This document shows positions 48,662-50,514 of a stretch of DNA of 64,000 nucleotides, in pieces. Within the stretch, counting starts at the first letter, position 1, and each line of letters opens with the position of its first letter. A program made the position numbers and the translations under genes. The DNA lies in contig CT868185.1 in assembly GCA_000165425.1 (NCBI GenBank), positions 310,001 to 374,000 of the forward strand. Reading direction: 5' to 3'. Source of the stretch: Paramecium tetraurelia (taxonomy: Eukaryota). The notes under the pieces were generated by a model, which saw only the letters and a list, made by a program, of their open reading frames with translations, had not been told where the DNA came from and ran no database searches.

Positions 48662-50514
48662 ATGCCAAGACACTCTTCCAGCTCAAGTAGAAGCCATAGA
48701 AGTAAATACCCTTTATATTAATTCTACCCTAGAGAAGCATAGTAAAAAGCACCGAAGACATTCAAGTTCTTCTTCTTCGTCGTCGGATTCCTCCTCAGAG
48801 CGTCATCATTCCAGGAGAAAAAGAACCCATCACCACCGTCGTTCAAGGTCTCCTCGCCCACGTTCTTCGAGTCCTATCAAGAAGGTGTTAATCAATGTAA
48901 GCATTCCAATCCTATATTAGAAGCCCATTTAATCCATATCAAGCGTAGAGTCAATCAAAGAATATAGGGCCTAACACAATATCTTCATTCGTTCACAACA
49001 TGTAACTGTCCCAGATCCTATCATGAGATTTGAGGACGTTTAATGTTTCCCACAGATGTTGATGGACTTACTGTTGAAGGCCGGTTTCAAAGGACCCACT
49101 GCCATTTAAGCCCAAGGATGGTCGATTGCACTAACTGGACATGACCTCATTGGAATAGCGCAGACGGGTTCTGGCAAAACTCTAGCCTTCCTTTTACCAG
49201 CGATCGTCCACATTTTGGCATAAGCTAGATCCCATGATCCCAAATGTTTGATATTGGCTCCTACAAGAGAATTGACATTACAAATATATGATCAATTTTA
49301 AAAGTTCTCTGTGGGATCTTAGCTTTATGCAGCATGCCTTTATGGAGGACAAGATCGCTACATATAGAAGAGCCAATTACGTAAAGGCCCTTAAATTTTG
49401 ATTGCTTGTCCAGGTCGTTTGATAGATCTATTGGATTAGGGTTGTACCACCCTCAAATAGGTTAGCTTCCTCGTTCTCGACGAGGCTGATCGTATGCTCG
49501 ACATGGGTTTCGAACCACAGATTCGTAAGATTGTTGATCAGATCCGTCCCCAAAGATAAACTATGCTTTTTTCTGCAACTTGGCCAAAGGAGGTGCAAAA
49601 GTTAGCACTTGACTTTTGCAAACAAGAGCCAGTCCACATTCAAATAGGAAATGTGGAACTAACATCTAATAGAATGATCAAGCAAATAGTCTACGTGATG
49701 AAAGCAATAGATAAAAATTAAAGGTATAATCAAACTATTGATGGTGCAAATATTTATACAAGATCATCAATATCTTTGTTATTTCATTTTATATATTAAG
49801 GTTGCTCTATTTGTTGAAGGACATAGCACATAAAAAAATATTAATCTTTTGTTCCACAAAGAAGGGATGTGACTAACTTCAAAAGACTCTAGACAGAGAA
49901 GGAATTCGATGTCTCGCATTACATGGAGATAAGAAGCAAACGGTAAATCCCCATTCTAAATTCATAGGAGAGAGATTATGTTATGAGTCATTTCAGAAAT
50001 GGAAGATCGACTGCCCTTATTGCAACTGATGTGGCATCAAGAGGATTAGACATTAAAGACATAGAAGTTGTTGTCAATTACGACATGCCAAAAGTAATTG
50101 AGGATTATGTCCACAGAATCGGAAGAACTGGTAATCTCTTAATATCTATTCTCAGGTCGTGCTGGAGCTATTGGCTAATCAATTTCATTCTTTGCTTCTG
50201 ATGAAGATGTCAGAATGGCCAAAGATCTAGTTGAAATACTTAGGGAATCCTAAAATGATATTCCTTATGAATTAAGAAGTTTGATAGATCAAAATACCAA
50301 AGGAAATAATTACAATCCTTATAGAAGATGGAATAATTCAGGATAGAGACACATGCCATAGCCTTTCATGTAACATCAGCATTAAAATTAAAATTCAAAT
50401 TAAAATCAACATCAGCATCAACATTAACATTAACCATCTCAATACCCATCCTAATGGTAATTTTAAGCATTCAATCCCCAAATACTTTAGTCAATAAATC
50501 CATATCAAATTTGA
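48662..50514 (+). CDS. DEAD-box RNA helicase, DBP2/DDX5-like, with RS-rich N-terminus and Q-rich tail
   Basis: [75 protein letters not shown]. Confidence 0.93.

What the first reader, a model, noticed from the sequence alone, without database searches (positions are those of the whole stretch)
49724..49800. Oversized 77-nt intron in the DBP2-like helicase built around a long palindrome
Seen: restoring DKNQR|LLYLL needs removal of 49724-49800, about three times the size of other introns here. Inside, TATTGATGGT (49736-45) pairs with ATCATCAATA (49763-72), extended by CAAA/TTTG and ATAA/TTAT, so 49726-49782 folds into one hairpin leaving ~20 unpaired nt, a normal intron length. A second donor at 49778 gives a 23-nt intron and an in-frame 18-aa insertion; full retention gives a premature TGA. 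Deleting TA..TA 49725-49780 (55 bp) or 49727-49780 (53 bp) at DNA level would leave an ordinary 22-24 nt intron. Established: DBP2/DDX5 genes autoregulate via introns in yeast and animals. Inference: either a structure-dependent splicing switch sensing the helicase's own unwinding activity, or a retained palindromic IES/MITE (its inner end TATTGAT equals the end of the 45134 element).
Basis: partly seen in the sequence, partly recalled or inferred. Interest (0 to 1): 0.76.

Follow-up and report, generated by a model that had tools for sequence, protein, structure and literature searches.

The report
Hairpin-bearing 77-nt intron in Paramecium helicase
A Paramecium RNA-helicase gene carries a real intron three times the usual length whose extra part folds into a hairpin kept in both duplicated gene copies, which may let it be spliced or regulate the gene.

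Summary
The window is somatic (IES-free) DNA of a Paramecium aurelia-complex species. 49724-49800 is a genuine 77-nt GT..AG intron of a DDX5/Dbp2-type DEAD-box helicase gene. Raw RNA reads skip exactly these 77 nt (5 and 12 reads in two runs). The six other RNA- or frame-supported introns nearby are 24-31 nt.

The hairpin is as described but weaker: 8 perfect pairs, 10 with one G.U, 18 in all. On this sequence alone it is not beyond chance (z -1.3).

Its weight comes from conservation. Three of six public ortholog or ohnolog annotations read through the intron. They show the same arms in both whole-genome-duplication copies and in four species. The loop is 19 nt shorter in the other copy and the 3' tail varies.

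The IES reading fails: a germline-like DNA contig carries six extra insertions here but is identical across the intron. The "45134 element" is an ordinary 27-nt intron.

Best reading: an old structured intron whose hairpin loops out the excess, leaving 2+18 unpaired nt. It has a weak AAG acceptor, and a retained form occurs in one RNA library. A helicase-sensing switch, as in the plant DEAD motif, stays open and untested.

The parts
48662..50514 (+). DDX5/Dbp2-type DEAD-box helicase gene (code 6). Exons 48662-48701, 48733-48896, 48921-49723, 49801-49942, 49968-50130, 50156-50514 (stop TGA). 556 codons.
   Evidence: Frames. Pfam DEAD 9.3e-51 on exon 3, and DEAD plus Helicase_C on the 96%-identical ortholog P0003. 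RNA depth runs 48623-50575 on one strand only.
48702..48732 (+). Control intron, 31 nt, GTA..TAG
   Evidence: Joint 'skips 31, GT..AG': 27 reads (X22) and 39 reads (X23).
48897..48920 (+). Control intron, 24 nt, GTA..TAG
   Evidence: Loose ends at 48896 and 48924 carry the neighbouring exon's letters. Frame.
49724..49800 (+). The 77-nt intron, GTATAA...TTAAG (3n+2). AAGGT is repeated at both borders.
   Evidence: Joint 49720->49798 'skips 77, GT..AG (cut +3), both 5': 5 and 12 reads. Removal restores KNQR|LLYLLK as in P0001-P0003.
49726..49745 (+). Left arm of the hairpin (ATAA, CAAA, TATTGATGGT, with bulges). It covers donor positions +3..+6.
   Evidence: Kept as ...YNQTID in the read-through peptides P0005, P0008 and P0004.
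49744..49762 (+). 19 nt (GTGCAA..ACAAG) making up most of the loop. Present in this ohnolog lineage and absent from the other.
   Evidence: Removing it in silico gives [15 protein letters not shown], the peptide that P0005 and P0008 carry.
49763..49782 (+). Right arm of the hairpin (ATCATCAATA, TTTG, TTAT). It holds the alternative donor GT at 49778-79.
   Evidence: G49778 P unpaired 0.05. Kept as DHQYLCY(F) in P0004, P0005 and P0008.
49783..49800 (+). Single-stranded 3' tail with the non-consensus AAG acceptor. Variable between copies.
   Evidence: Tails differ in the P0004, P0005 and P0008 read-throughs.
49778..49800 (+). Candidate alternative 23-nt intron (GTTATT..TTAAG) that would leave an in-frame 18-aa insert.
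   Evidence: Sequence only. No read evidence. could not have reported so short a skip in 58-nt reads.
49815..49817 (+). TGA reached if the 77 nt are retained
   Evidence: ORF 48573..49817.
49943..49967 (+). Control intron, 25 nt, GTA..TAG
   Evidence: Loose ends at 49938, 49967 and 49968. Frame.
50131..50155 (+). Control intron, 25 nt, GTA..CAG, inside motif VI (HRIGRTG|RAG)
   Evidence: Loose end behind 50132 'CGTGCTGG'. Sequence.
49919..49920 (.). Site where a germline-like DNA contig carries a 27-bp TA-bounded insertion (an IES) that the window lacks.
   Evidence: table 4: 'put in behind 49919', X1 depth 39.3 of 39.3.
45129..45155 (+).
   Evidence: table 4: X18 RNA contig 'left out 27' after 45128. 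Sequence.

Best explanation
49724-49800 is one genuine, evolutionarily old spliceosomal intron in macronuclear DNA of a Paramecium DDX5/Dbp2-type helicase gene. Its excess length over the usual 20-35 nt is a self-complementary stretch. In the pre-mRNA this stretch folds into a hairpin of 4+4+10 pairs. The hairpin loops out about 57 nt, so only 2 nt at the 5' end and 18 nt at the 3' end stay single-stranded. The donor and the branch/acceptor region are then about as close as in a normal Paramecium intron, and a spliceosome tuned to tiny introns can remove all 77 nt in one step.

Shown: the 77-nt removal, presence in somatic DNA, the predicted fold, and conservation of the arms.

Inferred: that the fold is what permits splicing. 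Also inferred: that the long length, the stem over donor positions +3..+6 and the weak AAG acceptor make splicing slow. Slow splicing would leave part of the transcripts retained, where they meet a premature TGA.
For: SPLICING
- 17 raw RNA reads in two runs join 49723 to 49801.
- Table 3 lists no other-copy letters at 49672 or 49712, where the public proteins of the other ohnolog lineage differ. The reads round the joint are therefore most likely this gene's own.

SOMATIC DNA
- The X1 DNA contig has six extra germline-type insertions but is identical over the intron.

FOLD
- Top helix pair probability is about 0.95 alone and in context. Unpaired remainder is 2+18 nt.

CONSERVATION
- The read-through peptides of P0004 (this lineage, P. 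primaurelia), P0005 (other lineage, P. sonneborni) and P0008 (other lineage, P. tetraurelia) share runs of 13, 14+8 and 10+7 residues with the window's frames across both arms.
- In the other lineage the 19-nt loop piece is missing and the tail differs.
- The loop-less form made in silico folds the same way, again with 2+18 nt unpaired.
- The arms are read in different frames in the two lineages. The constraint is therefore on nucleotides, not on a peptide.

BACKGROUND FROM PAPERS
- Recent-WGD ohnologs differ by about 1 synonymous substitution per site, and their IESs are mostly unalignable (PMC3464196 passage).
- Paramecium introns are 20-35 nt and the machinery 'only recognizes very short introns' (PMC5663052 section).
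- In P. bursaria, introns above 26 nt splice less well (PMC12862383 passages).
- Stems that shorten the effective distance in introns are established in yeast (PMC12350175 passages).

RETENTION
- RNA contig 9 of X18 runs ungapped over 49429-49824, and no spliced X18 contig was listed.
Against: - On the single sequence the fold is not significant: z -1.31, and 8 perfect pairs are reached by 14% of shuffles.
- No compensatory change was seen. The arms are simply unchanged. They are known only through translated read-throughs, which leave third codon positions open.
- This gene pair looks unusually similar at the DNA level, with about 6 differences in 217 nt where both copies' reads map. Low divergence or gene conversion could therefore explain part of the conservation.
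- The stem starts at +3. Yeast zipper stems must start at least 10 nt from the donor, so the base of the stem would have to open for U1.
- No orthologous DNA could be fetched.
- The level of retention could not be measured. Joint counts per bin depth are 0.19 and 0.21, against 0.85 and 0.66 for the 31-nt control. Per nearby single-position depth they are 0.42 and 0.29, against 0.47 and 0.35. The two normalisations disagree.
Confidence: 0.5

Rival explanations
1. Helicase-activity sensor. The hairpin is a regulatory element read by the helicase the gene encodes (and by its ohnolog). When helicase activity is high the stem is unwound. The intron then becomes a linear 77-mer that the short-intron spliceosome handles badly, or the masked GT at 49778 is exposed. 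Transcripts are then retained or mis-spliced, meet the TGA and are degraded. This gives negative feedback.
For: - The host gene is a DDX5/Dbp2-type helicase.
- The stem is conserved in both ohnologs.
- The stem masks an alternative donor and part of the real donor.
- The acceptor is a weak AAG, whereas the GTA..TAG consensus holds for 70-77% of introns (PMC5663052 passage).
- A retained form occurs in one RNA library.
- Precedents: a single stem-loop in an intron of plant DRH1/RH46 senses helicase activity through splice-site masking (preprint 10.64898/2026.01.23.701338; abstract and sections 3, 5, 14). The yeast dbp2/DBP2 intron is inefficiently spliced, with helicase-dependent retention (PMC4695336 passages).
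Against: - No data here link splicing of this intron to helicase level.
- The direction of any feedback cannot be predicted, because opening the stem base would also free the real donor.
- The alternative donor GTT lacks the usual GTA.
- In this lineage its use gives an in-frame insert rather than a stop.
- There was no Rfam match.
- Retention was not quantified.
Confidence: 0.2
2. Functionless relic. A short palindromic piece of DNA (MITE- or IES-like, or a repair footprint) landed in a normal roughly 20-nt intron before the last whole-genome duplication. It is merely tolerated. Its sequence looks conserved only because this highly expressed gene pair diverges slowly or undergoes gene conversion.
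For: - The central part of the other lineage's version reads as a loop-less palindrome, which suggests a DNA-level origin (inferred from peptides).
- AAGGT is repeated at both intron borders, like a target-site duplication.
- The left end TATAATCA matches the recalled IES end consensus TAYAGYNR at 7 of 8 places (by eye).
- 5.4% of IESs lie in introns (PMC3464196 passage).
- DNA divergence between the two copies is low where both map.
- No compensatory changes were seen.
Against: - Loop and tail changed by indels while 36-38 nt of arms did not.
- Lineage-specific amino-acid differences are shared across species, which argues against recent gene conversion.
- There is no second copy of the arms in 64 kb, nor in four collection scans. 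Those collections probably hold little ciliate DNA.
- A 77-nt linear intron should be strongly counter-selected if the machinery only takes 20-35 nt.
Confidence: 0.2
3. Retained or variably excised IES. The palindrome is germline DNA that should be cut out at TA..TA (49725/49727 to 49780), leaving a 22-24-nt intron. On this reading the window shows a retention.
For: TA dinucleotides lie at 49725-26 and 49780-81. Many IESs lie nearby.
Against: - The IES-free window and the IES-bearing X1 contig both hold the full 77 nt.
- No 'left out' row or DNA joint appears in 49724-49800.
- The right end does not resemble an IES end (by eye).
- The same insert is present in annotated macronuclear genes of three other species.
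- Only one DNA run was laid, and contigs drop rare variants.
Confidence: 0.02
4. The true product uses the 23-nt intron 49778-49800 and carries an 18-aa insert. Alternatively, the 77 nt are two introns (39 + 23 nt) around a 15-nt micro-exon.
For: Both keep the frame open, or nearly so. Two public annotations of the other lineage keep 18-19 extra residues.
Against: - Reads join 49723 directly to 49801.
- No 39-nt skip was listed at a 1% threshold.
- Removing 39 nt alone runs into the TGA.
- Three of six orthologs, and all distant DDX5/Dbp2 proteins, lack an insert here.
- The insert peptides of the two lineages differ by frame, so no peptide is conserved.
- The donor GTT is paired.
- A minor 23-nt form cannot be excluded. 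None of the three 24-25-nt control introns was reported as a joint in the 58-nt reads either.
Confidence: 0.03
5. Mirtron-like source of a small RNA: the excised hairpin intron is processed into a small RNA.
For: The hairpin fills most of the intron, with a 3' tail. The conserved human DDX5 intron is reported, by the title of Moore et al. 2011, to encode a miRNA. Only the title was seen, in a reference list. The paper is not held.
Against: - The stem has only 15-18 interrupted pairs.
- The loop is 4 nt in the other lineage.
- No small-RNA data were examined.
- No Rfam match.
Confidence: 0.03

Closest known systems
Yeast 'zipper stems' and downstream stems: intron helices that shorten the effective distance between splice signals (RPS17B and others; PMC12350175, passages read)
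   Same: An intramolecular helix loops out intron sequence so that the donor and the branch/acceptor region come close. It occurs in introns longer than the organism's short class.
   Different: The whole intron here is 77 nt and the stem begins at +3. Yeast zipper stems start at least 10 nt from the donor and bridge 42-85 nt of linker. The limit here would be an upper length limit of a tiny-intron spliceosome. The yeast stems are poorly conserved in sequence, whereas these arms are unchanged.
Plant DEAD motif in DRH1/RH46 (preprint 10.64898/2026.01.23.701338; abstract and sections 3, 5, 14 read)
   Same: A single stem-loop inside an intron of a DDX5/Dbp2-like DEAD-box helicase gene, present in the gene and its closest paralog. 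The stem base covers an alternative splice site, and the non-productive forms carry premature stops.
   Different: The plant stem is 20 bp in a long intron and masks an alternative 3' site. It is described as plant-specific. Here there are 15-18 interrupted pairs in a 54-77-nt intron. An alternative 5' site is masked, and its use would be in frame in this copy. Dependence on the helicase is shown in plants and untested here. No sequence relation is claimed.
Conserved, poorly spliced intron of yeast DBP2 / S. pombe dbp2 intron 2 / human DDX5 (PMC4695336, passages read; Barta & Iggo 1995, Iggo 1991 and Moore 2011 not held)
   Same: The same gene family. An intron whose inefficient removal lowers expression. 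Autoregulation is suggested.
   Different: Those introns are long (conserved 'in position and length') and act through retention and nuclear decay (Mmi1 in S. pombe). From recall only, they lie further 3', near helicase motifs V-VI. The Paramecium intron lies just before motif IV, at the start of the Helicase_C domain, while a plain 25-nt intron sits in motif VI. Positional homology was not tested.
Paramecium internal eliminated sequences (PMC3464196, passages read)
   Same: Short, AT-rich, TA-flanked, with weakly inverted ends. They can lie in introns.
   Different: IESs are absent from somatic DNA. This stretch is present in the somatic window and unchanged in the IES-bearing contig, and it is removed at the RNA level at GT..AG.

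Membership tests
Spliceosomal GT-AG intron of Paramecium | GT..AG borders and removal seen in mRNA | tested here: met
   Joint 'skips 77, GT..AG': 5 + 12 reads.
Spliceosomal GT-AG intron of Paramecium | Removal restores the conserved reading frame | tested here: met
   KNQR|LLYLLK as in P0001, P0002 and P0003.
Spliceosomal GT-AG intron of Paramecium | Length in the 20-35 nt class | tested here: not met
   77 nt, against 24-31 nt for the other introns here. Range taken from PMC5663052.
Spliceosomal GT-AG intron of Paramecium | Consensus GTA..TAG | tested here: not met
   The donor GTA is met. The acceptor is AAG. The five neighbouring introns end TAG (4) or CAG (1).
Paramecium IES | Present in germline-type DNA, absent from somatic DNA | tested here: not met
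   Present in the IES-free window and unchanged in the IES-bearing X1 contig.
Paramecium IES | TA at both ends with TAYAGYNR-like ends (consensus recalled) | tested here: inconclusive
   TA is present at 49725 and 49780. The left end matches 7 of 8 and the right end is poor (by eye).
Plant DEAD-motif type helicase sensor | Conserved single stem-loop in an intron of a DDX5-like helicase gene and its paralog | tested here: met
   Conservation is inferred from translated read-throughs.
Plant DEAD-motif type helicase sensor | Stem masks an alternative splice site that gives non-coding forms | tested here: inconclusive
   GT 49778 is paired (P unpaired 0.05). Its use was not seen, and in this copy it would be in frame.
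Plant DEAD-motif type helicase sensor | Splicing shifts with the helicase's own activity | not testable with these tools
   Needs knock-down or over-expression.
DBP2/DDX5 conserved autoregulatory intron | Same position in the coding sequence | not tested
   The primary papers are not held. Recall suggests a different place.
DBP2/DDX5 conserved autoregulatory intron | Inefficient splicing with a retained form | tested here: inconclusive
   One RNA contig retains the intron. Read-based ratios disagree.
Yeast-type zipper stem | Stem at least 10 nt from the donor, bridging donor and branch point | tested here: not met
   The stem starts at +3. Criterion from PMC12350175.
DEAD-box helicase, DDX5/Dbp2 subfamily (host gene) | DEAD and Helicase_C domains and motifs Q to VI | tested here: met
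   Pfam result. [15 protein letters not shown] and HRIGRTGRAG are in the translation.
DEAD-box helicase, DDX5/Dbp2 subfamily (host gene) | Closest named relatives outside ciliates are DDX5/DBP2/p68 | tested here: met
   Hits at 50-58% identity are named DDX5/DBP2, dbp2, p68 or DDX17 by their sources. No tree was built.
DEAD-box helicase, DDX5/Dbp2 subfamily (host gene) | C-terminal RGG/RG tail (typical of Dbp2 and DRH1) | tested here: not met
   The C-terminus is Q/H/N-rich. An R/S-rich stretch lies at the N-terminus.

The most novel reading that the evidence does not exclude
The hairpin is a length gate that reports helicase activity. Folded, the 77-nt intron looks like a 20-nt intron and is spliced. 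Unwound by the DDX5/Dbp2-type helicase that the gene and its ohnolog encode, it exceeds what the tiny-intron spliceosome accepts. It is then retained and sends the mRNA to decay through the TGA at 49815. That would be a third, independently evolved intron-based feedback in this helicase family, after the yeast DBP2 intron and the plant DEAD motif. It would be the first in which intron length itself is the switch.
Probability: 0.18. Interest if true: 0.8.

Novelty: new variant of a known kind. Interest (0 to 1): 0.55.

Why it matters
Paramecium is the textbook case of a spliceosome that takes only 20-35-nt introns. A validated 77-nt intron whose excess folds away is a natural experiment on what that length limit measures: contour length or end-to-end distance.

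If the fold matters, it gives a simple, testable rule for the rare long introns of tiny-intron organisms. If it also responds to the helicase, it adds a ciliate case to the intron-based self-control of DDX5/Dbp2 helicases.

In practice, three of six public annotations of this gene family mis-read the intron as coding sequence. Gene predictors with a hard length cap will keep making that error.

Tried and rejected
- Whole-genome search of the window's own assembly: none is held.
- Earlier notes of this scan: four look-ups, nothing.
- Orthologous or paralogous DNA: two patterns were scanned in metagenome contigs and in genome contigs, with 0 loci in 4 of 4 scans. One pattern was the hairpin arms with a variable gap. 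The other was a degenerate exon-end-plus-donor pattern. Those collections probably hold little ciliate DNA, so this says nothing about rarity.
- Second protein search in the 163-522-aa range for truncated or read-through products: no further close Paramecium protein. The window's own product did not appear in either length range.
- Rfam at E up to 10 over 49500-50000: three chance-level snoRNA rows (13.6-16.7 bits, against gathering scores of 37-46). None is centred on the hairpin.
- Repeat family in the window: the left arm has 3 further matches with 3 mismatches each, none convincing. The right arm has none.
- Measuring retention: joint-per-depth ratios depend on the normalisation. The 217-nt bins cannot resolve the intron, so I withdraw my first estimate of 'about 30% spliced'.
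- snoRNA host intron: no C/D boxes by eye and nothing in Rfam.
- Nested intron: the 19-nt lineage-specific piece happens to start GT and end AG. It is below the 20-nt minimum and lacks GTA/TAG, so I treat this as coincidence.
- The primary DBP2 and p68 papers could not be read.
- Literature searches for a described hairpin-bearing long intron, or for this gene's intron in Paramecium, found none. Supplementary intron tables of PMC5663052 and PMC8997360 were not opened and may list this intron's retention rate.
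Full report
WHAT THE WINDOW IS

The sequence is 24-36% G+C. It reads as long open frames only with TAA/TAG as glutamine. Its coding frames are broken by GT..AG stretches of about 25 nt.

The translated exon 48921-49721 finds Paramecium pentaurelia, primaurelia and sonneborni proteins at 95-97% identity and a P. 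tetraurelia protein at 87%. The window therefore comes from a Paramecium aurelia-complex species.

It is the somatic, IES-free form. One DNA contig laid on 44500-51000 (X1) matches it with no other letters. That contig carries extra letters at about 44990 (126), 46264 (42), 46882 (96), 47563 (97) and 48545 (75). It also has a 27-letter TA-bounded insertion behind 49919 (tables 4 and 8).

THE GENE

Exons are 48662-48701, 48733-48896, 48921-49723, 49801-49942, 49968-50130 and 50156-50514. They encode 556 residues with all DEAD-box motifs.

Pfam gives DEAD at 9.3e-51 on exon 3. It gives DEAD plus Helicase_C on the 96%-identical ortholog P0003. The nearest named relatives outside ciliates are DDX5/DBP2/p68/DDX17 at 50-58% identity.

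The 77-nt intron lies between the two domains, just before motif IV.

CHECKING THE OBSERVATION

The facts of sequence hold.
- Removing 49724-49800 gives KNQR|LLYLLK. Three public orthologs have the same junction.
- In two raw oligo-dT RNA runs the joint 'skips 77, GT..AG' is seen in 5 reads (4 starts) and 12 reads (7 starts).
- AAGGT stands at both borders, so five letters fit either side. Only one cut gives GT..AG.
- The other introns in the laid stretch are 31, 24, 25, 25 and 27 nt.
- The literature puts Paramecium introns at 20-35 nt with a mode of 25. It says the machinery 'only recognizes very short introns' (PMC5663052, section read). In P. bursaria the annotated range is 15-100 nt, with poorer splicing above 26 nt (PMC12862383, passages).

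The intron is therefore a true outlier.

The joint reads are most likely this gene's own. The public proteins of the other ohnolog lineage differ at codons that include 49672 and 49712. One search lists no other letters there at a 1% threshold. Depth in 49491-49707 is about half that of 49057-49273, where both copies' reads map.

THE HAIRPIN

The hairpin is as drawn but weaker than 'a long palindrome'.
- The minimum-energy fold pairs 4 + 4 + 10 positions and leaves 2 + 18 nt free.
- The 10-pair helix holds one G.U. The longest perfect inverted repeat is 8 bp, which 14% of 5000 shuffles reach.
- The energy is not unusual: z -1.31, and 15 of 200 shuffles fold as well.
- The top helix has a pair probability of about 0.95 alone and within +-60 nt of context.
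- G49778 of the alternative donor is unpaired with probability 0.05. Donor positions +3..+6 are unpaired with probability 0.17-0.25.

WHAT GIVES IT WEIGHT: CONSERVATION

The six close Paramecium proteins fall into two lineages, marked by shared residue differences. These are the two copies from the last whole-genome duplication.

Three of the six annotations splice the intron out (P0001, P0002, P0003). Three read through it, which exposes its sequence.
- P0004 (this lineage, P. primaurelia) carries 25 extra codons, so the intron is 77 nt there too. It shares [13 protein letters not shown] with the window's third frame over 49750-49788.
- P0005 (other lineage, P. sonneborni) carries 19 in-frame residues.
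- P0008 (other lineage, P. tetraurelia) carries 18 in-frame residues.
- Both of these begin YNQTID and continue DHQYLCY(F). That is the left arm followed directly by the right arm.

Cutting 49744-49762 out of the window in silico gives exactly [15 protein letters not shown].

The other copy therefore has the same arms, lacks 19 nt of loop, and has a different tail, for a total of 54-57 nt. The loop-less form folds the same way and again leaves 2 + 18 nt free.

The right arm is read in different frames in the two lineages. What is kept is nucleotides, not a peptide.

For scale, recent-duplication ohnologs differ by about one synonymous change per site, and their IESs can mostly no longer be aligned (PMC3464196, passage).

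Caveats:
- Third codon positions are not known from peptides.
- No compensatory change was seen.
- This pair seems unusually alike in DNA where both copies' reads map: 6 differing places in 49057-49273.

WHAT IT IS NOT

It is not an IES.
- The stretch is in the somatic window and unchanged in the IES-bearing contig.
- Only one DNA run was laid, and contigs hide rare forms.
- It is present in the annotated somatic genes of three other species.

It is not part of a repeat family visible here.

It is not related to the '45134 element'. That element is an ordinary 27-nt intron, 45129-45155, left out of an RNA contig.

It matches no Rfam family.

It is not two introns round a micro-exon. Reads join 49723 straight to 49801, and no 39-nt skip was listed.

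The 23-nt alternative cannot be excluded as a minor form. None of the three 24-25-nt control introns was reported as a joint in the 58-nt reads either. They appear only as loose ends.

IS IT SPLICED WELL?

One RNA contig (X18, record 9, depth 187) runs ungapped over 49429-49824. No spliced X18 contig was listed. Intergenic depth in that run is 0, so DNA carry-over is unlikely.

The read counts are ambiguous.
- Per bin depth the 77-nt joint has 5/26 and 12/58. The 31-nt control has 27/32 and 39/59.
- Per the nearest single-position depths the ratios are 5/12 and 12/41, against 27/57 and 39/112.

I therefore claim only that a retained form exists. I do not claim a level. Retention would reach TGA at 49815-17.

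The acceptor AAG departs from the GTA..TAG consensus, which 70-77% of introns match (PMC5663052, passage).

HOW IT MOST LIKELY WORKS

I favour a structured intron (0.5). The hairpin loops out about 57 nt, so the ends sit about 20 nt apart and the tiny-intron spliceosome can act. The same remainder in both copies, despite a 19-nt loop difference, fits this reading.

It works like the yeast stems that shorten effective distances (PMC12350175, passages). It fails their positional definition, because the stem starts at +3.

There, a stem-loop in an intron of DRH1 and its paralog masks a splice site and is opened by the helicase itself (preprint 10.64898/2026.01.23.701338; abstract and sections 3, 5, 14). 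There is a looser precedent in the poorly spliced dbp2/DBP2 intron (PMC4695336, passages). Nothing here tests it.

A tolerated relic of a palindromic insertion (0.2) remains possible. The border repeat AAGGT and the near-perfect central palindrome of the other copy hint at a DNA-level origin. That origin could hold even if the fold is now useful.

NOVELTY

My searches found no description of this intron, or of hairpin-bearing long introns in Paramecium. Supplements were not opened. I rate it a new variant of a known kind.

Noticed in passing
window ~44990, ~46264, ~46882, ~47563, ~48545 and 49919/49920: One DNA contig (X1) holds about 126, 42, 96, 97, 75 and 27 extra letters at these places relative to the window. 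This is the pattern of germline IESs, so the window is the somatic form. The 27-letter one is TA-bounded, begins TATAGTTA, and lies in exon 4 of the helicase gene.
   Followed up: partly
window 48900-50000 (for example 49037, 49058, 49070, 49106, 49124, 49880, 49979; loose ends at 49938 and 49968): At 17 listed places, from a few percent up to about 55% of RNA reads (roughly 20-55% at most of them) carry another letter, while the DNA contig does not. Loose ends spell KKQS|ERDY instead of KKQT|ERDY. A close ohnolog, expressed at about the same level, cross-maps onto this gene. This is not editing.
   Followed up: partly
proteins P0004, P0005, P0008 (relatives of window 49724-49800): Three of six public annotations of this gene family translate the intron. 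One of them then runs out of frame through exon 4. The window's own product was not found in the protein collection in either length range searched.
   Followed up: yes
other-lineage copies (P0005, P0008), equivalent of window 49724-49800: In the other ohnolog lineage the intron is 57 or 54 nt. That is a multiple of three with no in-frame TGA. Paramecium is reported to avoid this class because retention escapes NMD. Retention there would give an 18-19-residue insert at the start of the second helicase domain.
   Followed up: no
window 49721-49725 and 49798-49802: AAGGT stands at both borders of the 77-nt intron. The other five introns checked have 0-2 ambiguous letters, setting aside the row that computed with mis-set coordinates for the fifth intron. 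This could be splice-site consensus or the mark of an insertion with target duplication.
   Followed up: no
window 48662-48900 and 50340-50514: The helicase has an N-terminal stretch rich in R, S, H and K (RS-like) and a Q/H/N-rich C-terminus. It lacks the RGG tail typical of Dbp2 and DRH1.
   Followed up: no
window 12753-12788 and 46302-46336: These are perfect inverted repeats much longer than the one in the intron. One has 16-bp arms with a 4-nt gap and the other 12-bp arms with an 11-nt gap. The second lies in the 5' part of the long reading frame 46003-48543, about 40 nt from the ~46264 germline insertion site.
   Followed up: no
window 48623-48839: The RNA-contig run X18 shows depth 0 over the serine/arginine-rich first exons, although raw-read runs cover them at 32-59. 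This is probably the tool's filter or an assembly gap in low-complexity sequence, not biology.
   Followed up: no
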